DNA from: Nitrosopumilus sp.
Lineage (GTDB): Archaea; Thermoproteota; Nitrososphaeria; Nitrososphaerales; Nitrosopumilaceae
Assembly (NCBI GenBank): GCA_029861345.1
Contig: JAOTZM010000044.1
Span: 1-11,037, forward strand
DNA: 11,037 nt
Direction of reading: 5' to 3'
Shown piece by piece: positions 1 through 9,414 of this stretch (within the stretch, counting starts at the first letter, position 1; the number at the start of each line of letters is the position of its first letter). Under the pieces are notes generated by a model. It was not told the DNA's origin. It was given only the letters and a program-made list of their open reading frames with translations, and did not search any database. A program made the position numbers and the translations under genes.

Positions 1-717
1 GTCAACAACATAATTTTTAGCAATGAATCTAAAATAAAAGAATCATTAAAGAAACTGGAAAACAAGAAAATATTTGTAGATATCTCAAAGGATCTTAATT
101 CTTACAAATTAGGGGAACGCACTAAGAAGGATTATGAGAAGTTACTAGATACACTTTCAGATATGATGGAACTTGCATCTTCAATAATATTGATAAAAAA
201 TGCAAGTAATAGTGAGAAATTAAAAAATAAATTAACAACATGTTATGATGAAATCAAAGAAACACTAGATCAAACTAACAAAAAAATCATCAGAGATAGA
301 AAATCAAATGAAATAATAATATTGCAAAGACGGTTTGCAGGAAGAATTCCAAGTACAGGATATCTTAAACTTTAAAATTTAGACATTAATTTCCATTATC
401 ATTTCCAATCAAGATAATTCTAAATTCTATTTACGGTAAGACAGGACAAAGTGTAAATCATAAAATTGGTAATTTGTTTAGTCCAGTTATTGCAAGTACC
501 ATCACTGGTATGACTAGGGCAATGCTGTATGAGTTTGTCCAGAAACATGGAATTGAGAATGATGTGGTGTCTTTTGCCACAGATTCCATCATAACTACAA
601 AGAAACTAGGCGTGAATTTCTGACGGCTCTCGCAAAGTTTTACAAATTCTGAACAATCTTGTATCAATGACAAAAGATGAGGCACAAATCATTTTAAAAA
701 ATTATCAGAAAATCTAA
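1..717 (+). pseudogene. polB: Protein-primed family B DNA polymerase (casposon-type pPolB), 3' portion, split into three frame segments (1-375, 390-623, 622-717); 5' end lies outside the window
   Basis: Frame 1 is open from nt 1 to TAA at 373-375. Frame 3 (390-623) translates as FPIKIILNSIYGKTGQSVNHKIGNLFSPVIASTITGMTRAMLYEFVQKHGIENDVVSFATDSIITTKKLGVNF*. This contains polymerase motif B Kx3NSxYG (411-437) and, about 50 aa later, a motif C-like SFATDS (570-587; consensus YxDTDS). Frame 1 resumes at 622-717 (GSRKVLQILNNLVSMTKDEAQIILKNYQKI*). DLNSY at 91-105 may be a degraded motif A (DxxSLYP). One stop, two frame changes and no KxY motif after motif C indicate a pseudogene. Assigning 1-375 to the same gene is an inference. 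Confidence 0.6.
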
Positions 718-867
718 AATTTAACAAATTGAATTTAAACAAAGAGACCATATAGGATCAGTTCTCATCAGATCTACGTTAGTTTCTATCAGTAAATTCA
801 TTAAAACAAAACAAAAACAAGTGATCTCCAATTATATTTTAATATACACACAGTATCAACAACAGTA

Positions 868-2505
868 TTGATTCTAAAACTAAGTTTACTTGTTATCGTA
901 GCATTGTTTATAATTTCAATTTCTCCAGCATATGCTCAACATCATGGCGGATCACTTGCACCTCCAATCGATTTTGATGGGATGTCAGTTGCGTTAAGTT
1001 CAATTTTATCACCAGAAGATTTTACGTTTGAAGACACAAAAAGTGCAAACCTTTCAATTAGATTCTTTGATAGTCAAACAGACAAGAACATAACTAGTGT
1101 AACATATCGCATCCAAATATTCCAAGGGGACAATCTTGTGGCAAATGAATATTTTTATGATGAAGATGGAAACCTGGATTTAGAGGTTAGACCCACAATA
1201 GGATGTGAAAACAAAGAACTATGGAAATGTACAAACTACTTTGGTGAAAAACACCCCATTGCAGGAGCATATTTTGCAAGAGGAGATTCAAGACCAGTAA
1301 TTGAAGGTCCAGTGTTTGACAAGAGTGGTCAATACAATGTTAAAGTGTCTATCGTAGGTGCAACAAATCCCAAAACAATGACAACTAGTGACTTACAATT
1401 TGAAACATTTCTTTTGATTCCAGAAAAGCAGAATTTTTTAATCCAAACAGCAAATGCGGAGGAATTTCCTATTTCAATTAAATCATTTGATAGTGAGATA
1501 AGCAATTTTGCTTTTGATGAAGAATTAAACAAGATTTCGTATGAAACATCATTTGACTGGGATCATAGTAAAGAACATGGTTCTAATTCAAAACAGACCA
1601 TTCATGTTCAGAAAGATTTCCCTGTTTTCAAACAAGGACATGACATCGATGTATTCATTGAAGGAATAAAGATAGAAAGACCATTTCTCTTTGATGTTTC
1701 ATCACCAAATGAGAACATCATCAGAATAGACATACCACATAAAGAAATTATGAGCATTCATGATAAATTAGAAGAAAACCATATCAATCAAAATACTATG
1801 AAAGTGGACGTATTTTCAGGATCACAAACACAACTAAACACGTTAAACTTTTCATTTGAAAATGAATATACCACAAATGTCACCTGGAATTCTCAGTTAG
1901 AATCAGGACAAGAAATCCCATTTACGTTTTCATTCTTAGATGCAAATAACAATCCAATCGATGACATGTTGTTTGCATATAGCATTACAGATTCAGATGG
2001 AAATGAAGTATGGACAAACATAGGCCAAAGTCAAACATTTCTGGGCATTGTTGCGCAAAATGAGATACATCAGGAATCAGCTTTGATATCAAATGACGGG
2101 AATTATCAATTTACGGTAATTTTGACAGGACAGGGAATTACAAATTTTGAAAAATTCTTTACATCTAAATCAGATTTTGAGATTATCTCTTCTCATAATT
2201 TAGAAACTACAAAAGAAGTTACATCCAATAAAGTTGAAATTCCGTCATGGATAAAAAACAATGCTGGATGGTGGGCAGAGAGTGCAATTGACGATGATTC
2301 TTTTGTTCAGGGAATCCAATTTATGATTAAGGAAGGATTGATGAGGATACCAATCTCGGAGCAAAATTTAGTTTCTCAAGAAAACAAAATCCCAGTCTGG
2401 ATCAAGAATAATGCGGGATGGTGGGCAGACGATTTAATTTCTGAGGCTGATTTTGTCAAAGGGGTGCAATTTTTGATAAGTCAGGGAATCATTACAGTAA
2501 ATTAA
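868..2505 (+). CDS. Secreted protein of unknown function (545 aa) with N-terminal signal peptide and two C-terminal WIKNNAGWWA modules
   Basis: Longest ORF in the window, with a TTG start. The N-terminus MILKLSLLVIVALFIISISPAYA|QHHGG has the n/h/c layout of a signal peptide with an AxA cleavage site. The body is beta-rich and Asn/Ser/Thr/Asp-rich. There is no C-terminal TM or sorting signal. A TATA-like ttatatttta at 832-841 lies about 26 nt before the start. Confidence 0.85.
   Translation: MILKLSLLVIVALFIISISPAYAQHHGGSLAPPIDFDGMSVALSSILSPEDFTFEDTKSANLSIRFFDSQTDKNITSVTYRIQIFQGDNLVANEYFYDEDGNLDLEVRPTIGCENKELWKCTNYFGEKHPIAGAYFARGDSRPVIEGPVFDKSGQYNVKVSIVGATNPKTMTTSDLQFETFLLIPEKQNFLIQTANAEEFPISIKSFDSEISNFAFDEELNKISYETSFDWDHSKEHGSNSKQTIHVQKDFPVFKQGHDIDVFIEGIKIERPFLFDVSSPNENIIRIDIPHKEIMSIHDKLEENHINQNTMKVDVFSGSQTQLNTLNFSFENEYTTNVTWNSQLESGQEIPFTFSFLDANNNPIDDMLFAYSITDSDGNEVWTNIGQSQTFLGIVAQNEIHQESALISNDGNYQFTVILTGQGITNFEKFFTSKSDFEIISSHNLETTKEVTSNKVEIPSWIKNNAGWWAESAIDDDSFVQGIQFMIKEGLMRIPISEQNLVSQENKIPVWIKNNAGWWADDLISEADFVKGVQFLISQGIITVN
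2239..2502 (+). repeat. Tandem duplication of a ~50-aa protein module at the C-terminus of the secreted protein (period 150 nt)
   Basis: IPSWIKNNAGWWAESAIDDDSFVQGIQFMIKEGLM (from 2239) aligns with IPVWIKNNAGWWADDLISEADFVKGVQFLISQGII (from 2389). The DNA copies differ mostly at synonymous positions (tggataaaaaacaatgctggatggtgggcagag vs tggatcaagaataatgcgggatggtgggcagac). This indicates an old duplication under selection. Confidence 0.85.
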
Positions 2506-2550
2506 TTTGCCACAACGTCAATAAAAATGATCAGGACCGTACATGAAATT

Positions 2551-2961
2551 TTAGGAATTTAACATAGACTGAATTTTTGTTTTTGTAATTTGTTTTTCAA
2601 GATATTTTCTCTTTGATTCATCTCGAAATGTGTCATACTGTCCAATACAGTATTTTGTACCTGTAAGTGAATCCATTAATCCGTTCATTAGGCAGATTGG
2701 ATGGCCTGAAGTATCTGTCAGAATTACATTTCTGTTATTTTGGGCAAGTGACTTTAGTGCAGCAAATATAATGTATCCATTACCTGAAACAACTAGTTTT
2801 TCATATGGCATATTCTTGACAAACCATTCCTCTGTGGTTCCTTCTGAGAATGGGTCATGATTATCTTTTAGAACTATTTTAGAATCTTTTACTGAAATTG
2901 AATGACCATATCCTTTGAGGAATTTTACATTGTAATGGTTTTGTTTTCCCTTTAGAGTCAA
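2551..2961 (-). pseudogene. cas1: Cas1 (casposase) N-terminal domain only; ORF is intact for 136 codons but lacks the catalytic C-terminal domain
   Basis: TTG start; no in-frame ATG, and an in-frame TGA lies 16 codons upstream. PYEKLVVSGNGYIIFAALKSLAQNNRNVILTDTSGHPI fits the conserved Cas1 N-domain block (short strand, G.G.is..Al..L...gi.v..ld..G). QYDTFRDESKRKYLEKQITKTKIQ fits the start of the helical domain (Q......d...r..la..i...Ki). The ORF stops roughly 200 aa short of a full Cas1 and runs into the convergent secreted-protein gene. Recognition is by eye, not by profile search. Confidence 0.6.
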
Positions 2962-3173
2962 GATGCTTGTAAAAATGGATGAAATGTGGGTAATGCTTTT
3001 AGATAATCAGACAGAATATTCTCAATATATAGAGAAGCAGGTTCACATGATGCTTGTTTTACGGAGCAAACAAGAGATCGTCCTGCTTCTCTATGTATAC
3101 TATGAATTATGATTAAAAAGGAACACGTAGAATTCATTACATTCACAATCAACAAAAGAAATGATGTTAGTAT

Positions 3174-3278
3174 TGATCTTAAAGAATTTCCAACAAACCA
3201 CCCTTCCTACTAACGTAAGTTATATCGCGTTTCTAGGCATAAGAGGGGGGCTTTCCCTTTTTACTCTTTGTCGATAAA
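3174..3278. repeat. Terminal-motif copy A: G-rich motif 3220-3262, 13-nt core 3263-3275, exact 21-mer 3258-3278
   Basis: tttttactctttgtcgataaa (3258-3278) is identical to 4847-4867. The flanking sequence cataagaggggggctttccc aligns imperfectly with cataaatcgggggagggaggtacca. Direct similarity starts at tgatcttaa (3174 vs 4781). By eye, the only runs of 5 or more G in the window are in copies A and B. Confidence 0.85.
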
Positions 3279-3376
3279 CTCGTTTACACTTTAGAACAAA
3301 TGTGAATGGGCACACTTCATCAGTGTCAGAATATCCTAAAAGAAACGTAATCATTATTATAAAATTGAATACTATT

Positions 3377-3508
3377 TTACTGAAATGCCATTAGAGAAAT
3401 ATAAGATATGACAGTAGCTACAACTAGTGATGCACATACTATGCTTGTTATTCCATCCTTACGTTTTTGTCTAGCATCAAAGTCAGTTGATGTCTTCTCC
3501 AATTTCAT
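3377..3508 (-). CDS. Small tail-anchored membrane protein, 43 aa (below the ORF-track cutoff)
   Basis: My own translation gives ATG..TAA MKLEKTSTDFDARQKRKDGITSIVCASLVVATVISYISLMAFQ. It has a charged N-terminal part and one C-terminal hydrophobic helix. A TATA box gtataaat (minus strand, 3531-3538) ends 22 nt before the ATG, the same spacing as for the divergent gene at 3611. Confidence 0.4.
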   Translation of the reverse strand: MKLEKTSTDFDARQKRKDGITSIVCASLVVATVISYISLMAFQ

Positions 3509-3530
3509 ATGTTGTCGTTTTGTAATTAGC

Positions 3531-3588
3531 ATTTATACTTATCGGTAATGAATGGTAATAATAGGTAATTACTACCAATGTTTATAAA
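3531..3588. promoter_or_regulatory. Divergent promoter region with two TATA boxes, each 22 nt from its start codon (leaderless-type spacing)
   Basis: atttatac at 3531-3538 (read on the minus strand as gtataaat) serves the ATG at 3508. tttataaa at 3581-3588 serves the ATG at 3611. Archaeal TATA boxes are centred about 26-27 nt upstream of the TSS, which places both TSSs at or next to the start codons. Confidence 0.4.
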
Positions 3589-3610
3589 GAAATAATTCTG
3601 AAGTCTCGTC

Positions 3611-3847
3611 ATGACTTGTAAGGGCATATGTATAAGGTACAAAGCAATAAGGCCAACTACTGGCGTAGGGCGATATTTTTCAGGGCAAAAACGATGCCAA
3701 ATTTGTGAGATTTTCATAAAGTGGGGAGGATTTTGTTGCCCATGTTGTGGATATAAGCTACGTTCCAAACCCAAAAAGCTAAAGTACAAAAACAAACTTC
3801 GTGAAAAAATGCAATTACAAGTTCAATCAATACCCATTCTAAATTAG
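3611..3847 (+). CDS. Small Cys-rich zinc-ribbon protein with basic C-terminal tail (78 aa)
   Basis: ATG start. Eight Cys are arranged C3-x3-C7 ... C29-x2-C32 ... C42-C43-P-C45-C46, followed by RSKPKKLKYKNKLREK. A TATA box lies 22 nt upstream. The antisense ORF 3526-3795 looks like a shadow. Confidence 0.7.
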   Translation: MTCKGICIRYKAIRPTTGVGRYFSGQKRCQICEIFIKWGGFCCPCCGYKLRSKPKKLKYKNKLREKMQLQVQSIPILN

Positions 3848-3922
3848 TTTTAGAAAAAGTGCAAAATAAATGAGATTTGAATTTAAATGAATAAAAGAGA
3901 TGATTGGTAAATTAGTGATATA

Positions 3923-4318
3923 ATGAGCAGCGAAAACACAGATCTCCAAATTTATGAAATAAGGGCTAAAGATCTTCTAGATGAAGACGGAGTTAGATTT
4001 GCTGGAATAATTAATGAGGATGGCAATCTAATCTCTGGTGGATTTAAAAAAGGTGTACTGCCTCTAGAATCTGATCAAGAAAAATTAGAATCATTTTTGG
4101 AATTTGTCTCAAAAATTTCATTAAGAAAGCAGTATGATGATAGCCTGGGACCGATTAACTATCTTGTTGCCAGACGAAATAAAACAGTACTGATCAGCTT
4201 TCCGTTCCCTCTTAGTAAGTTTCTATTGTTAATCTCTGCAGAACCTACAGTGAATATTGAAAATTTAGCTAGCAAAGTCATCAAAGTGTTTGGCGGCCCA
4301 TCACTATCTTCTGATTAG
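3923..4318 (+). CDS. Hypothetical protein, 131 aa, possibly Roadblock/LC7 (MglB)-like fold
   Basis: ATG start. The pattern GVRFAGIINEDGNLISGG ... LGPINYLVARRNKTVLISFPF ... LLLISAEP resembles Roadblock/LC7 proteins (G...a.l...dG.li ... long helix ... v.i....llLv.a). The fold assignment is by eye only. The last ~7 codons and the stop overlap the antisense cas1 remnant. A T5 run (4321-4325) follows the stop. Confidence 0.7.
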   Translation: MSSENTDLQIYEIRAKDLLDEDGVRFAGIINEDGNLISGGFKKGVLPLESDQEKLESFLEFVSKISLRKQYDDSLGPINYLVARRNKTVLISFPFPLSKFLLLISAEPTVNIENLASKVIKVFGGPSLSSD

Positions 4319-4398
4319 AGTTTTTAAGAGAAATCAAAACGCCATAGCCTCTAAGTAATTTTACATTGTAATGGTTCCTTCTTTCCTCTAAGAGTTAA
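4300..4398 (-). pseudogene. cas1: Second cas1 5' remnant (~32 codons, start codon lost, +1 frameshift)
   Basis: An exact 20-mer aattttacattgtaatggtt occurs at 4357-4376 and 2921-2940. The minus-strand translation LTLRGKK/NHYNVKLLRGYGVLISLKNSNQKIV aligns with (M)TLKGKQNHYNVKFLKGYGHSISVKDSKIV of the 2551-2961 ORF, about 20 of 28 aligned residues identical. TTA replaces the TTG start, and one extra nt lies after codon 7. Similarity fades near 4300. Confidence 0.75.
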
Positions 4399-4767
4399 TT
4401 AACCCCCAGTTTGGTCTATTACTCTTTGAGTTATTTCAGGAGTTATCCATTCATCCAAGTTTTTATCACACTCTTTTATGCTAAATTCTTTGGTTATTCG
4501 ATTTAATTCATTTTGATACTCATTGCTGATTTTTTCAGCTTCTTCAGAAGAGAATTGGTTTGGATTAAGAACATATTGTTTCATGTTGTTTCTTGCTTGG
4601 ATCATTTGATTTGTCAATATTTCACATTGAGATAATTTAGGTTCCATGTTGATTTTTCCATATTCTTTTTCAAATTCAAAATCTGAATGTCCATCTCCTC
4701 CAATTACAATCATAAGAATTACTACTGGAATGCCAACTCCTATTCCAATCACTAGATCTTTTTTCAT
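4399..4767 (-). CDS. Membrane-anchored hypothetical protein (122 aa): N-terminal TM helix and helical ectodomain with two Cys
   Basis: ATG start. MKKDLVIGIGVGIPVVILMIVIGG forms the TM anchor, and the remainder is polar and helical. The TAA stop (4399-4401) is immediately followed by the cas1 remnant. This matches the position of ORF 2958-3155 relative to the first cas1 fragment. Confidence 0.7.
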   Translation of the reverse strand: MKKDLVIGIGVGIPVVILMIVIGGDGHSDFEFEKEYGKINMEPKLSQCEILTNQMIQARNNMKQYVLNPNQFSSEEAEKISNEYQNELNRITKEFSIKECDKNLDEWITPEITQRVIDQTGG

Positions 4768-4780
4768 ATTTCTTATAATA

Positions 4781-4911
4781 TGATCTTAACGAAAAGCATT
4801 ACGACCATAACTGTTTTCCCTCATAAATCGGGGGAGGGAGGTACCATTTTTACTCTTTGTCGATAAAAAGGGACAGTCCACCCCTTTCCAGAGCGTGAAA
4901 ATGCGATATAA
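4781..4911. repeat. Terminal-motif copies B-left (4821-4851, direct) and B-right (4865-4911, inverted) bracketing the 13-nt core 4852-4864
   Basis: tcataaatcgggggagggaggtaccattttt | actctttgtcgat | aaaaagggacagtccacccctttccagagcgtgaaaatgcgatataa. The reverse complement of the right arm (ttatatcgcattttcacgctctggaaaggggtggactgtcccttttt) aligns end to end with copy A (ttatatcgcgtttctaggcataagaggggggctttcccttttt). Confidence 0.8.
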
Positions 4912-5064
4912 TTTAGATTATGATCTACCTGTCACGTAAACAATATACAAAATAGATGAAACAACAAGGGAAATGCCAAGGATTATTGCTAATTCTTTTC
5001 TTGAAAATACACTTGCTCTATAATTCACTATCATGCTGTAAGAATAATGAACTTAAGCATTTAT

Positions 5065-5190
5065 CTATTCTTTCTTATCTATCTCTAATTCTTCTATTTT
5101 CAATTCAAGTTCTTTTACTTTTTTCCTTAATTCGATATTTTCATCTCTCAATGAATCAATCTCTCTTTGATGTAATTCATTTAGATCCAT
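5065..5190 (-). CDS. Small coiled-coil protein, 41 aa (below the ORF-track cutoff)
   Basis: My own translation gives MDLNELHQREIDSLRDENIELRKKVKELELKIEELEIDKKE*. It has a heptad-like Leu/Ile pattern. It lies 80 nt downstream of the J-domain gene and in the same orientation. The listed + strand ORF 4956-5192 (Leu/Ser/Ile-rich) looks like its antisense shadow. No independent support. Confidence 0.35.
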   Translation of the reverse strand: MDLNELHQREIDSLRDENIELRKKVKELELKIEELEIDKKE

Positions 5191-5270
5191 GAATTTTCTG
5201 CAAGAATTTCAAACTTAAGATTGTTGGTGTCAGGAGTTTAACAATTTTAGAAGAATTTAATCCAATCATA

Positions 5271-5861
5271 TTATTTTCTACTTTTCATAATTTTATCAAA
5301 TGCAATTTTAATTGAAATGAGCATTTTCTCTGCATATTTTGGTTCATTGGGATTTTTGTCGGGATGCCATTTTAAAATTAAACGTCTGTATGCATCTTTG
5401 ATTTGTGCATCTGTGGAATTCTCCAATACCCCTAACAGACTGTAGTGTATTCCAATATCTGATTCTTTAAATGTTTGCTGTGTTTTTTGATAACTTTTTT
5501 TGTACTTGTTTTGACTTCTCTGCCAAAACTCTCTTTTGAATAGCGACTCGATGTATCTCTGATGTGTCTGCGATTCTTCTGTGGATATGTTTGTCCAGTG
5601 AGCTTGCTCAAACTCTTGAATTATTACATCAAATTCATCATCGGAAATTCTGAACTGGTTTGTTTGAAAAGTCTCTTCTTGTGGAACATAGTCTTGTCTC
5701 TCTCTAAATCTTCTAAAATCACTCTCAAATGATTTTTGCTTTTTTAATCGGCGAGTTGTCTGACAATTCCTACAAATAAACTCACCAGAATTTTCTGGGT
5801 GAGGCCACAAATCAATCCTGTAAAATGATCCTTTACAGTCTGAGCATGTGTACGCCAACAT
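5271..5861 (-). CDS. Zinc-ribbon / C-terminal J-domain protein (196 aa)
   Basis: ATG start. The N-terminus has CxxC...CxxC (C6, C9, C30, C33). The C-terminus [52 protein letters not shown] is a J domain with the HPD tripeptide. The middle part is polar, Gln/Glu/Arg-rich and low in complexity. Confidence 0.85.
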
Positions 5862-6342
5862 AGAGTTTATTTTTTCTTTTCTTTTTGATGTTTTGTTAAT
5901 TTTTTATAATCCTAAAGATTATGAATTAAAAATTCAAAGTGTTAATGAGATACAATATTCAAATCTGTACGGGTTTCTATTCTAAAGGTAATTTGGATTC
6001 TCTGCTCTTTTTTCCTGAAAATTAAAGATTCTATCAAATTATGCAAATCCAATTTTTAGCTTAATTGTGCCTATGATTGTTATTTTTAGCACTGAAAATC
6101 AAAAATATGTTGTCGAGTCAATTATGCACTAAAAGGGCAAACTTTTGTAACTATGAGATGTATCTTCGAGTCATTTGACATTTGGTGTGACGTTCATTTA
6201 TGTTCCAATCAGGCCTAGTAGGAGAGATCAAGAAGTCGATGAAATAGAAGATACTGATGAATAGCATTTTTTTACAATTTGTATGATGAATTTTCAAACT
6301 TTGTAAAGTTGAGCTATTTATTTGCCATTTTTTAGGTAAAGC

Positions 6343-8733: not shown

Positions 8734-9414
8734 TTGAGTAACCCTAAAAAATCTAAAGATGCAGAAGATATCTTATCTGAATTTGATTCTCGAACTAAAT
8801 CCGAACCTGAACCACAACTAGATGCACCAGAACCTGAACCACAACTAGATGCACCAGAACCTGAACCACAACTAGATGCACCAGAACCTGAACCACAACT
8901 AGATGCACCAGAACCTGAACCACAACTAGATGCACCAGAACCTGAACCAACACCTGAACCAACACCAGAACCTGAACCAACACCTGAACCAACACCTGAA
9001 CCAACACCAGAACCTGAACCAACACCTGAACCAACACCAGAACCTGAACCAACACCAGAACCTGAACCAACACCAGAACCTGAGCCCGCATCTGATACAC
9101 CTGCAGTAACTTCTAGTGAAAAAACAGATTCTCATATCCCTGAAGAACGTGATATTATTTTTGTCGGCACAAAACCCATTATGACTTATGTCTCTGCAAC
9201 TTTAACACAACTTTCAACAAGACCACATGTGACCATTAAAGCTAGAGGAAAAAGAATCACCCAAGCAGTTGATGTATCTCAAATGATTGTTAAGAGAATG
9301 GATTTTGTAGGTTATGTTGTTAGTGATGTGAGAATTTCATCTGATTCTCTTACTTCTCAAGATGGGAAGCAACGTAATGTCTCTACCATTGAAATTGATA
9401 TTTCAAAAAACTAA
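8734..9414 (+). CDS. albA: Alba (Sac10b) family nucleic-acid-binding protein with ~135-aa acidic Pro/Glu-rich repeat N-terminal extension
   Basis: The C-terminal ~90 aa [85 protein letters not shown] matches the Alba pattern (v.igkKpvMnYV.a......g...v.ikArG.aI..AVdvae....r......v..i.i.s......G....vS.IEI.l.k). The frame is open back to TTG 8734. There is no ATG, GTG or TTG between 8737 and the Alba core. AGGA lies 9 nt upstream of the TTG. Confidence 0.8.
8803..9087 (+). repeat. In-frame tandem repeats: 5 perfect copies of a 27-bp unit (8803-8937), then nested 6/12/18-bp units (8938-9087)
   Basis: gaacctgaaccacaactagatgcacca occurs x5 with no mismatch (EPEPQLDAP). It is followed by combinations of gaacct and gaaccaacacc[t/a] (EPEPTP / EPTP). 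Codon choice is uniform throughout (gaa, cct/cca, aca). Confidence 0.97.

What the first reader, a model, noticed from the sequence alone, without database searches (positions are those of the whole stretch)
3220..4911. Three copies of a G-rich terminal motif around an identical 13-nt core: candidate TIRs and target-site duplication with a head-to-head junction
Copy A (3220-3262) abuts actctttgtcgat (3263-3275). Copy B-left (4821-4851) abuts the same 13-mer (4852-4864). On the other side of that 13-mer lies 4865-4911. In reverse complement it aligns with copy A from ttatatcgc to cccttttt, at roughly two thirds identity by eye. The second core is therefore bracketed by inverted motif copies (ttttt-core-aaaaa). 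This is the layout expected for the right TIR of one element, a TSD, and the left TIR of a neighbour. Copy A has only one arm. No partner terminus for the right-facing arm is visible in the remaining 6 kb, so it may be a solo end. The alternative is that the palindrome is the natural target or a structured RNA or terminator. An imperfect hairpin can also be drawn, pairing gggggagggagg with ccacccctttcc.
Basis: partly seen in the sequence, partly recalled or inferred. Interest (0 to 1): 0.75.

Follow-up and report, generated by a model that had tools for sequence, protein, structure and literature searches.

The report
Decayed casposon ends sharing target site
The repeated 13-mer is the integration target of Cas1-encoding transposons (family-1 casposons) of ammonia-oxidising archaea, and the three G-rich motifs beside it are the ends of three broken casposon copies, so this is a known kind of mobile-element graveyard with one unexplained twist.

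Summary
ACTCTTTGTCGAT occurs twice (3263, 4852), each inside an identical 21-mer. Three G-rich terminal motifs (A 3220-3262, B 4821-4851, C 4865-4911) abut the copies.

Read on the minus strand, the 13-mer is ATCGACAAAGAGT. [quoted passage not shown] The essential A1, A11 and T13 and the TTT/AAA flanks are kept. It encodes the last codons of aEF-2 (IDKE*).

A, B and C are the three best matches in the window to a left-terminal-inverted-repeat (TIR) matrix built from 96 other casposon ends. Cas1 N-terminal relics follow A and B, and a protein-primed PolB relic lies further left.

Position 4821-4911 is a standard junction between tandem elements. At 3263-3291 the place of the missing arm is taken by a 16-nt copy of the ef-2 3' end.

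All three elements are defective. They sit in an 8.4-kb island that is absent from a related Nitrosopumilus genome, and no ef-2 gene lies within 17 kb.

This is a new member of a known kind. The unexplained part is that this 16-nt mimic plus TSD is widespread outside ef-2.

The parts
393..653 (+). [quoted passage not shown] It is inverted relative to the Cas1 fragment when compared with intact casposons.
   Evidence: tblastx/tblastn: window 393-617 matches residues 403-477 of the 605-aa ORF L015:14649-16466 (61% aa). That ORF matches Pfam DNA_pol_B_2 at 4.9e-20. blastn matches the same region in 12 other casposon loci.
868..2505 (+). 545-aa secreted protein gene with a repeated 'WIKNNAGWWA' C-terminal domain. 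Probably cargo or island content.
   Evidence: The ORF has a signal-peptide-like N-terminus. C-terminal-domain homologues occur in 14 other loci that carry the casposon target. This is one of the commonest gene types next to left TIRs in metagenome loci.
2551..2961 (-). Cas1 (casposase) N-terminal fragment of element E1, 136 aa. The catalytic C-terminal domain is deleted.
   Evidence: Pfam Cas_Cas1 at 8.2e-07. 70% identical to residues 1-121 of the intact 340-aa Cas1 of L010, with no homology beyond 2551. 230 homologues found.
3161..3219 (-). Subterminal region of E1, conserved with other casposon left ends. Contains a TATA-like gcgATATAA.
   Evidence: blastn alignments from about 100 loci start at 3161-3190 and run out to the terminus.
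3220..3262 (-). Terminal repeat A, the left TIR of E1. Read outside-in on the minus strand: AAAAAGGGAAAGCCCCCCTCTTATGCCTAG...
   Evidence: Best TIR-matrix score in the whole window, 29.1 bits (window mean -37.8, sd 11.2). 97% identical over 38 nt to the left TIR of L018.
3263..3275 (-). Target/TSD copy T1. Minus strand ATCGACAAAGAGT = ATC GAC AAA GAG T(AA), the ef-2 C-terminus IDKE*.
   Evidence: 11 of 13 bases match the NitAR1-C1 TSD ATTGATAAAGAGT. A1, A11, T13 and the TTT/AAA flanks are kept. The same 13-mer ends true ef-2 genes.
3276..3291 (-). 16-nt mimic of the ef-2 3' end ('leader'). Minus strand AAGTGTAAACGAGTTT = SVNEF, preceded by an in-frame stop codon.
   Evidence: Translation and comparison with true ef-2 ends. 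In a logo of 76 non-redundant sites of this type, conservation starts abruptly at -16. About 100 blastn alignments end at 3289-3293.
3292..4820 (-). Body of unit E2. Genes: 51-aa membrane ORF (3377-3532, -), Zn-ribbon ORF (3611-3847, +), DUF6659 gene (3923-4318, +), second Cas1 N-terminal relic (4315-4390, -, 'NHYNVKLLRGYGVLISLKNS*') and a 122-aa ORF (4399-4767, -).
   Evidence: ORFs and Pfam. Repeat D3, 2879-2954 against 4315-4390, is 74% identical; translation. tblastn to Cas1 of L010 residues 4-32. Zn-ribbon and DUF6659 homologues occur in other target-bearing loci.
4821..4851 (-). Terminal repeat B, the left TIR of E2. Outside-in: AAAAATGGTACCTCCCTCCCCCGATTTATGAG.
   Evidence: Second-best independent TIR-matrix hit, 19.3 bits. 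90-92% identical over about 40 nt to junctions in L194 and L099.
4852..4864 (-). Target/TSD copy T2, shared by E0 and E2 at a tandem junction.
   Evidence: Identical to T1. RTIR-TSD-LTIR architecture as in 25 junctions from other loci.
4865..4911 (+). Terminal repeat C, the terminus of element E0. In target orientation it is a right TIR ending ...GGGGTGGACTGTCCCTTTTT next to T2.
   Evidence: Third-best independent TIR-matrix hit, 14.5 bits. 83% identical over 66 nt to the right TIR in L110, which abuts the same TSD. 36 of 47 aligned columns match A.
4912..6136 (+). Truncated remainder of E0, including a DnaJ/Zn-finger gene (5271-5861, -) that reads towards terminus C. It ends at the island boundary.
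   Evidence: A DnaJ homologue (66% aa) lies about 690 nt inside a terminus of a TSD-flanked, Cas1-less 5-kb element in Nitrosarchaeum LAS73 (L015:4165-9138), in the same orientation. 4937-5058 is 75% identical to casposon-locus DNA in L067/L068. The island boundary comes from the L070 empty site.

Best explanation
The region is a small array of three defective family-1 casposon derivatives joined at copies of the casposase target site.

**Layout on the minus strand**
- [E0 ... right TIR C]
- ATCGACAAAGAGT (T2)
- [left TIR B, 122-aa ORF, 25-codon Cas1 relic, DUF6659 / Zn-ribbon / small membrane genes] (E2)
- 16-nt ef-2 3'-end mimic
- ATCGACAAAGAGT (T1)
- [left TIR A, 136-aa Cas1 fragment, ...] (E1)

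**Mechanism, from the characterised NitAR1-C1 casposase**
1. A Cas1-family integrase recognises TTT plus the 13-bp site.
2. The 3'-OH ends of the element attack the two borders of the 13 bp on opposite strands.
3. Gap repair duplicates the 13 bp.

Every insertion therefore regenerates the target, and later elements pile up head to tail around shared copies. This produces the 'ttttt-core-aaaaa' palindrome at 4821-4911. The T- and A-runs are the last bases of the TIRs, and they mimic the natural leader and spacer flanks.

**Shown here**
- The identity of the target and of the three termini.
- The Cas1 and PolB relics.
- The 13-bp duplication in nature at homologous sites.
- Absence of the island from a relative.
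- A second haplotype with a different element at T1.

**Inferred**
- These particular copies arrived by casposase action, supplied in trans or before they decayed.
- The order of events.
- The origin of the ef-2 mimic at T1.

None of the three elements can move on its own now.
For: **Target**
- The reverse complement of the 13-mer differs from the mapped NitAR1-C1 TSD only at two synonymous third-codon positions. It keeps A1, A11, T13, the TTT leader and the AAA spacer start, and the 13-bp length.
- It is the end of ef-2 (…NEFIDKE*) in 20 or more loci.

**Comparative**
- A scan for Cas1 relatives in species-representative genomes gave 75 loci. About 35 of them carry the site within 2 mismatches, flanked by an ef-2 leader or a right TIR upstream and a left TIR AAAAA-N6-7-CCCCC(C) downstream.
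- 12 of 18 TSD-flanked units have near-perfect 28-34-nt TIRs.

**Termini**
- A, B and C are the top three independent matrix hits in the window.

**Genes**
- A Cas1 fragment lies 260 nt inside A, and a Cas1 relic lies inside B. A pPolB relic is also present.

**Mobility at homologous sites**
- L164/L168 (empty) differ from L181 by a 1342-bp element with an exact 13-bp duplication.
- Haplotype L005 of this very locus is about 98% identical to the right of T1 but carries a different terminal repeat and interior to the left of it.
- The whole 8.4-kb island is missing in L070.

**Literature**
- Thaumarchaeal casposons target the ef-2 3' end, and tandem pairs are known (PMC6563490, PMC4046053).
Against: - No ef-2 gene lies within 17 kb.
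- No element here has both TIRs. The right end of E2 is an ef-2 mimic, not a TIR.
- Cas1 is truncated and PolB is a small inverted relic, so nothing here demonstrates activity.
- The two 13-mers need not be the product of one insertion.
- The ATAA 'ruler' of the N. koreensis TSD reads ACAA here.
- The island's own boundaries show no TIR or TSD. They show only a weak imperfect direct repeat of about 22 nt, so casposase action does not explain how the island reached this locus.
Confidence: 0.9

Rival explanations
1. The 21-mer and its flanks are a promoter, terminator or other regulatory motif repeated next to unrelated genes. They are not transposon ends.
For: The 21-mer occurs in at least 120 metagenome contigs with very diverse upstream sequence. 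Only 11-13% of those with enough downstream sequence have a Cas1 hit within 4 kb. The subterminal region contains TATA-like motifs.
Against: - The 13-mer is the coding end of ef-2 and the mapped casposase target.
- The downstream side is a casposon-type terminal repeat in 99 of 123 matches.
- Perfect inverted copies of these repeats bound 1-14-kb units flanked by the duplicated 13-mer.
- Presence/absence polymorphisms with an exact 13-bp duplication exist.
- Any promoter inside the TIR would be the element's own.
Confidence: 0.03
2. The imperfect palindrome at 4815-4915 encodes a structured small RNA or an intrinsic terminator.
For: A hairpin pairing the G-rich and C-rich arms can be drawn.
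Against: - The fold is not better than shuffles (z = -0.74).
- Rfam finds nothing in the region at E up to 1, and no tRNA is present.
- The two arms belong to different TIR sub-lineages with their own homologues elsewhere.
- Any tandem junction of TIR-bearing elements gives such a palindrome.
Confidence: 0.02
3. The direct repeats (16-nt ef-2 mimic plus 13-mer plus A-run) are attL/attR-type sites of elements integrated by a tyrosine recombinase or by homologous recombination through a circular intermediate. On this view the 13-mers are att cores, not casposase-made duplications.
For: - The conserved block at T1 is 29-34 nt with a sharp upstream edge, like an att core.
- E2 has no right TIR.
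- Elements that integrate into 3' ends of genes typically carry a replacement 3' end.
- One thaumarchaeal casposon is reported to encode a XerC-like recombinase.
Against: - No recombinase gene is in the island.
- DNA upstream of such sites in long contigs is core host DNA (leuS, metK and cobalamin genes, mcm), with no element termini.
- At T2 the sequence upstream of the 13-mer is a TIR, not the mimic, so the repeat shared by T1 and T2 is only TTT+13+AAAAA.
- Where both states are seen, the duplication is exactly 13 bp between TIRs.
Confidence: 0.05

Closest known systems
NitAR1-C1 / NitSJ-C1, family-1 casposons of Ca. Nitrosopumilus koreensis (Krupovic 2014; Béguin 2019; Wang 2021)
   Same: - Thaumarchaeal host.
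- Target derived from the last codons of aEF-2.
- 13-bp TSD: ATTGATAAAGAGT there, ATCGACAAAGAGT here.
- TTT leader and AAA spacer flanks.
- G/C-run TIRs ending in a T-run. The '...TTCTA' motif is seen in many relatives' right TIRs.
- Cas1 close to one terminus, and a protein-primed PolB.
   Different: - Here no element is intact: Cas1 is reduced to 136 and 25 codons, and PolB to about 80 codons.
- No ef-2 gene is nearby.
- One junction has a 16-nt ef-2 mimic instead of ef-2 or a TIR.
- The ATAA ruler reads ACAA.
Tandem casposons NitNF5-C1/C2 in Ca. Nitrosopumilus adriaticus and casposon arrays in Methanosarcina mazei (Krupovic 2016, 2019)
   Same: Re-use of the regenerated target gives head-to-tail elements separated by one TSD copy, as at 4821-4911. 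Remnants of decayed neighbours are known.
   Different: Those arrays are anchored at the natural target (ef-2, or a tRNA gene in M. mazei). This one lies in an island between unrelated genes and consists only of fragments.
Non-autonomous deletion derivatives of DNA transposons (MITE-like elements)
   Same: E2 (1576 bp) and relatives such as the 1342-bp element in L181 and the 311-bp unit in L148 keep a terminus, and sometimes a Cas1 stub, but no enzymes. They are flanked by the duplicated target.
   Different: I found no description of mini-casposons of family 1 in the papers read. E2 lacks the second TIR.
CRISPR leader-repeat unit
   Same: A Cas1-family integrase, a short leader requirement, and duplication of a fixed-length sequence at each insertion. 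The 16-nt leader mimic plus 13-nt TSD makes a 29-nt block.
   Different: There are no short spacers, no regular array and no Cas2 or effector genes. The inserted units begin with casposon TIRs.

Membership tests
Family-1 casposon (Thaumarchaeota) | Encodes a Cas1-family casposase (compact, no C-terminal HTH) | tested here: inconclusive
   Only N-terminal fragments are present: 136 aa at 2551-2961 (Pfam Cas1 8.2e-07) and 25 codons at 4315-4390. They are 60-75% identical to Cas1 of casposons at ef-2. The catalytic domain and C-terminus are absent, so HTH status cannot be read.
Family-1 casposon (Thaumarchaeota) | [quoted passage not shown] | tested here: inconclusive
   Only a relic of about 75 codons (393-617) is present. 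It is homologous to a DNA_pol_B_2 ORF of an intact relative and is inverted relative to Cas1.
Family-1 casposon (Thaumarchaeota) | Terminal inverted repeats at both ends | tested here: not met
   Three termini of the family type are present (matrix scores 29.1, 19.3 and 14.5 bits). No unit has two: E1 and E0 are truncated, and E2 ends in an ef-2 mimic. These are therefore fragments or derivatives, not complete members.
Family-1 casposon (Thaumarchaeota) | Flanked by a 13-bp duplication of the specific target with a TTT leader | tested here: met
   ATCGACAAAGAGT occurs twice, with TTT upstream and AAAAA downstream. It matches 11 of 13 bases of the mapped TSD, with A1, A11 and T13 kept. That both copies arose from one insertion is not shown.
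Family-1 casposon (Thaumarchaeota) | [quoted passage not shown] | tested here: not met
   No ef-2 lies in the window plus 6 kb of flank. Only a 16-nt ef-2 3' mimic is present at 3276-3291. The literature already notes non-ef-2 sites.
Family-1 casposon (Thaumarchaeota) | Casposase-dependent mobility | not testable with these tools
   Indirect evidence only: insertion polymorphism at homologous sites, an alternative occupant at T1 in haplotype L005, and absence of the island in L070.
Structured RNA / intrinsic terminator | Fold more stable than composition-matched controls, or a match to a curated family | tested here: not met
   z = -0.74. No Rfam or tRNA hit in the region.

The most novel reading that the evidence does not exclude
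The 29-nt block at T1 (16 nt of ef-2 leader plus the 13-bp target) may be a portable 'landing pad'. On this reading, family-1 casposons repeatedly export it from ef-2 to new chromosomal positions, usually the 3' ends of co-oriented host genes. It then acts as a secondary, re-usable integration hot spot.

- In my sample, 87 of 149 target sites are of this type, against 20 at true ef-2.
- The upstream edge is sharp at -16.
- Both the leader and TSD variants follow each lineage's own ef-2 sequence.

This would imply a defined cut or copy start 16 nt inside the leader. A transposon that carries its own leader-plus-repeat-like unit bears on models of how casposon ends and targets became CRISPR leaders and repeats.
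Probability: 0.3. Interest if true: 0.65.

Novelty: new member of a known kind. Interest (0 to 1): 0.42.

Why it matters
For the finding itself, it shows that a reader working by eye can recover casposon termini and their target correctly. It also adds a decayed, multi-element casposon array at a non-ef-2 locus in an estuarine Nitrosopumilus population, with population-level variation at the target.

More broadly, the comparison set assembled here suggests three things.

- Most copies of the casposon target in nature sit outside ef-2, next to a sharply bounded 16-nt ef-2 mimic.
- Cas1-less or Cas1-truncated derivatives greatly outnumber intact casposons.
- These sites flank genes for large secreted proteins.

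If confirmed, this changes the picture of family-1 casposons from rare single insertions at ef-2 to a major shaper of variable islands in marine ammonia oxidisers. It would also give a natural system for studying how a Cas1 integrase's leader-plus-repeat-like target spreads.

Tried and rejected
- **Known RNA or tRNA target.** An Rfam scan of the window at E up to 1 and ARAGORN found nothing at the site. ARAGORN on 16 related loci found no tRNA next to the target. The tRNA-target idea was dropped.
- **Hairpin.** Not significant.
- **A second terminus or third TSD for E1 or E0.** None found in 17 kb, even at 4 mismatches.
- **A 29-31-bp duplication made at ef-2 as the source of the mimic.** Disfavoured. 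Every second junction identified in an ef-2-anchored array is of the TIR type, never the mimic type. No mimic site has ef-2 on its contig.
- **The mimic as the right end of TIR-bearing units in general.** Disfavoured. None of 17 mimic sites with 3-12 kb of upstream sequence has a casposon terminus with an adjacent TSD-like 13-mer upstream. Only the window, L148 and L130 look like this.
- **An off-target TSD just upstream of the mimic.** The logo shows no signal.
- **In-frame stop codon before the mimic (28 of 87 sites).** My own estimate from the logo frequencies (A at -16 plus AT-rich background) is about 30%, so I attach no meaning to it.
- **Right TIRs belonging to elements that follow mimic sites.** None recovered, because contigs are too short or the elements are decayed.
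- **The upstream context of L083 inside L087.** Not found.
- **Viral-contig scan for the 21-mer.** No hits.
- **Supplement of Wang et al. 2021 with the TIR oligonucleotides.** Not held.
Full report
**1. The observation**

The sequence is as described. ACTCTTTGTCGAT occurs only at 3263 and 4852, both inside the identical 21-mer TTTTTACTCTTTGTCGATAAA. The repeat finder gives 3255-3278 against 4844-4867 at 96%, and inverted arms 3241-3263/4864-4886 (83%) and 3211-3232/4899-4920 (82%).

Local alignment of 3150-3300 against 4760-4930 scores 46 in direct orientation and 32 in inverted orientation. Dinucleotide shuffles give means near 16.5, sd about 2.2, and maxima of 27 and 28. The window is 33% G+C. 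It contains no tRNA and no Rfam match at the site.

**2. Context**

- A 136-aa ORF at 2551-2961 (-) is the N-terminal domain of Cas1 (Pfam 8.2e-07).
- A second Cas1 N-terminus of 25 codons lies at 4390..4315 (-). It is detectable as a 74% DNA repeat of 2879-2954.
- Window 393-617 (+) is homologous to residues 403-477 of a protein-primed PolB of an intact relative.
- To the right of 4911 lie a DnaJ/Zn-finger gene, an exosortase-like gene, dinB, an Alba fusion and lysE.
- Metagenome contigs of the same population (L001-L006) extend the locus 6 kb to the left.

**3. The 13-mer is the casposase target**

Wang et al. 2021 (PMC8464041) mapped the TSD of the family-1 casposon NitAR1-C1 to 13 bp, ATTGATAAAGAGT. 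Their main findings were these:

- the minimal leader is TTT;
- A1, A11 and T13 are essential;
- the spacer side begins with TTT on the other strand;
- an earlier '22-bp TSD' really consists of GTTT + 13 + 5 bases.

The reverse complement of the window's 13-mer is ATCGACAAAGAGT. It differs at positions 3 and 6 only and keeps A1, A11, T13 and the TTT/AAAAA flanks.

In frame, the 13-mer reads ATC GAC AAA GAG T(AA) = IDKE*. The two differences are synonymous third-codon positions.

I aligned Cas1 N-terminal homologues and scanned species-representative genomes, which gave 75 loci from Nitrosopumilales and Nitrososphaerales. About 35 of them carry the 13-mer within 2 mismatches.

- Upstream is either a true ef-2 end (…RKRKGL.P.PP..[DN]EFIDKE*) or a right TIR such as ...GGGGGGATTCTATTTTT.
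- Downstream is a left TIR such as AAAAATAGAATCCCCCC....

Twelve of 18 units bounded by two copies of the site have near-perfect 28-34-nt TIRs and range from 1.0 to 13.6 kb. The literature places thaumarchaeal casposons at the ef-2 3' end and reports one tandem pair.

**4. The three motifs are casposon termini**

A position matrix was built from 96 distinct left-TIR 20-mers of other loci and scored over both strands of the window. The three best independent positions are exactly the outer ends of A (29.1 bits), B (19.3) and C (14.5). The next unrelated hit scores 5.6, and the window mean is -37.8 with sd 11.2.

- A is 97% identical over 38 nt to the left TIR in L018.
- C is 83% identical over 66 nt to a right TIR in L110.
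- A and C share the inner motif GCGATATAA and match at 36 of 47 aligned columns.

The hairpin formed by B and C is not thermodynamically unusual (z = -0.74). It is the expected by-product of two TIRs meeting at one target copy.

**5. Anatomy in target (minus-strand) orientation**

The order is: E0 remnant ... right TIR C (4911..4865), T2 (4864..4852), left TIR B (4851..4821), 122-aa ORF, Cas1 relic, then antisense DUF6659 and Zn-ribbon genes and a small membrane ORF. After these come AAGTGTAAACGAGTTT (3291..3276), T1 (3275..3263), left TIR A (3262..3220) and, after 260 nt, the Cas1 fragment.

- **E0.** The DnaJ gene reads towards terminus C. Its homologue in Nitrosarchaeum LAS73 lies about 690 nt inside a terminus of a TSD-flanked 5-kb element without Cas1 or PolB. 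This supports C as a true element end.
- **E1.** It has only its Cas1-side end. The rest of Cas1 is deleted, and the PolB relic is inverted relative to intact casposons.
- No other terminus or target copy exists in 17 kb.

**6. The island**

In a related MAG (L070, Nitrosopumilus 13_July_SF_Bin28), L001:1-3787 and L001:12215-13577 are contiguous at 78-79% identity. The segment from window -2290 to 6136 (8.4 kb) is therefore an insertion or deletion difference between a 159-aa membrane-protein gene and the 316-aa gene.

The island's edges carry only a weak direct repeat of about 22 nt and no casposon features. L070 has its own decayed casposon relic elsewhere.

A second haplotype of the window locus (L005) is about 98% identical from T1 rightwards. 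To the left of T1 it carries a different terminal repeat, about 75% identical to A, followed directly by a PolB relic. Homology resumes at window 275-484. T1 is thus a boundary at which different casposon ends occur in otherwise near-identical genomes.

**7.

The viral collection gave none.

Of 123 matches, 99 are followed by a left TIR. By a tblastn match to EF-2, only about 13 lie at true ef-2 genes.

I then pooled all loci and took sites within 1 mismatch of the 13-mer. Of 149 such sites, 143 could be classified:

| Upstream context | Sites |
|---|---|
| Short ef-2 3' mimic | 87 |
| Right TIR | 25 |
| True ef-2 | 20 |
| Other | 11 |

A logo of 76 non-redundant mimic sites shows background upstream of -17 and an abrupt start of conservation at -16: A[A/G]GTGT[T/C/A]AACGAGTTT. 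The window's 3276-3291 belongs to this class, and about 100 blastn alignments end at 3289-3293.

Mobility at these sites is shown in three ways.

- L164/L168 against L181 is a clean presence/absence of a 1342-bp element with 60-nt perfect TIRs and an exact 13-bp duplication at ef-2.
- Several mimic sites share the same upstream DNA but carry different elements (L103/L127, L197/L198).
- The same element follows a mimic in one contig and another element's right TIR in another contig (L083/L087, 99.9% over 1.9 kb).

**8. What remains unexplained**

Mimic sites are not part of ef-2 arrays. Every second junction identified in an ef-2-anchored array is of the TIR type, and no mimic contig has ef-2.

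In 17 cases with 3-12 kb of upstream sequence, there is no casposon terminus with an adjacent TSD-like 13-mer upstream. Where annotated, the upstream DNA is core host sequence, and the site lies at the 3' end of a co-oriented gene:

- leuS in L010, next to a casposon with an intact 340-aa Cas1;
- a cbiC-like gene in L197, whose stop codon lies inside the mimic;
- an mcm-like gene in L200.

Leader and TSD variants follow lineage-specific ef-2 sequences: GVNEF, TANEF and PDEF for the leader, and IDKE, IDRE and IDSE for the TSD.

The simplest reading is that 16 nt of leader plus the TSD are carried from ef-2 to new places together with a casposon end. This implies a defined break or copy start at -16. 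I could not test that.

For the window, two readings remain open.

- E2 is a TSD-flanked unit with a leader-mimic right end, like the 311-nt and 1305-nt units in L148 and L130.
- The mimic and T1 arrived with E1.

A. boonei casposase needs about 15 nt of leader, which may be relevant to the 16-nt length.

**9. Further side observations**

- All 120 best Cas1 homologues are 238 aa or shorter.
- In the unbiased 21-mer loci, only 11-13% have any Cas1 hit within 4 kb, and all of those hits are short. Defective derivatives therefore dominate.
- The commonest neighbouring genes encode large secreted proteins, including relatives of the window's 545-aa ORF.

**10. Verdict**

The finding is real and correctly interpreted in outline. 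It consists of casposon termini and the casposon target, arranged as a decayed array. This is a new member of a known kind. Interest is moderate for the finding itself. It would be higher if the dispersed 29-nt ef-2 mimic proves to be a transposon-borne landing pad.

Noticed in passing
window 3276-3291; about 87 sites in loci L007-L201: A sharply bounded 16-nt copy of the ef-2 3' end (A[A/G]GTGTTAACGAGTTT) precedes the casposon target at most non-ef-2 sites. Conservation begins exactly at -16. Upstream DNA is diverse host sequence, often the 3' end of a co-oriented gene (leuS, cbiC-like, mcm-like). I did not find this described in the casposon papers read.
   Followed up: partly
L181 (whole locus) against L164:~724 and L168: A clean presence/absence polymorphism at a true ef-2 3' end. 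The inserted 1342-bp mini-casposon has 60-nt perfect TIRs, a decayed Cas1 N-terminus and an antisense ORF, and it produced an exact 13-bp duplication.
   Followed up: yes
L005:1-700 against window 275-3300: A second haplotype of this locus. It is about 98% identical from the 13-mer at 3263 rightwards. To the left it has a different terminal repeat followed directly by a PolB relic (residues 412-503 fused to a membrane tail), in place of the Cas1 fragment and the 545-aa gene.
   Followed up: yes
window -2290 to 6136 (L001:3788-12214); L070:1343-1354: The whole 8.4-kb region is absent from a related Nitrosopumilus MAG, where the flanking genes are adjacent. The region holds a luciferase-like gene, a pentapeptide-repeat gene, the casposon relics and DnaJ. 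Its edges share only a weak repeat of about 22 nt (TACTA..G.AAA.TT.TG).
   Followed up: partly
L015:4165-9138 (Nitrosarchaeum sp. LAS73); also L034/L015 together: A triple tandem array at ef-2: a 5.5-kb casposon, a 10.9-kb casposon (Cas1, pPolB and a TIR-domain protein) and a 5-kb Cas1-less element. The last carries OsmC, a possible AbiGi-like protein and the DnaJ/Zn-finger homologue of window 5271-5861.
   Followed up: partly
L148:3117-3461 and L130:1316-2654: Very small units (311 and 1305 nt) bounded by two copies of mimic+target. Each starts with a left TIR. The 311-nt unit encodes only a Zn-ribbon peptide of about 35 aa. The motif CATCCTTCCCAAAAAATAATTTC recurs in the tails of such units (L148, L093, L083, L086).
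   Followed up: no
protein hits P0001-P0120; metagenome loci L082-L201: All top 120 homologues of the Cas1 fragment are 238 aa or shorter, some on contigs of 100 kb to 2 Mb. Only 11-13% of unbiased target sites have any Cas1 remnant within 4 kb. Truncated or Cas1-less derivatives appear to outnumber intact casposons.
   Followed up: partly
window 868-2505 and loci L030, L189, L144, L082, L094, L019, L032, L035, L011, L107: Genes for large secreted proteins with a repeated 'WIKNNAGWWA...GIQ(F/Y)LI' C-terminal domain recur next to casposon targets and termini. Casposon-derived sites may mark islands of variable surface proteins.
   Followed up: no
window 8776-9131: The Alba-domain ORF (8734-9414) contains a long in-frame tandem repeat with 12-27-nt periods (EPEP/TP-rich). 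It gives a weak Pfam match to procyclic acidic repetitive protein.
   Followed up: no
L010:9273-11020: An apparently intact casposon left end (HEPN/AbiV-like ORF plus a 340-aa Cas1) sits directly after the leuS stop codon. It is separated from it by a 26-nt ef-2-like segment plus the target. The true ef-2 site of the same MAG (L033) shares the rare ...GAGTTC leader ending.
   Followed up: partly
L111:~700-765, L149, L185 against window 4821-4851: A 50-60-nt tail module (CCGGGAGGGAGATTTATCGATCTAGTTCAAATCTCCGCCTAATTGAG) lies directly upstream of some mimic sites. It resembles repeat B, but the G/C run is replaced by its complement. Its significance is unknown.
   Followed up: no
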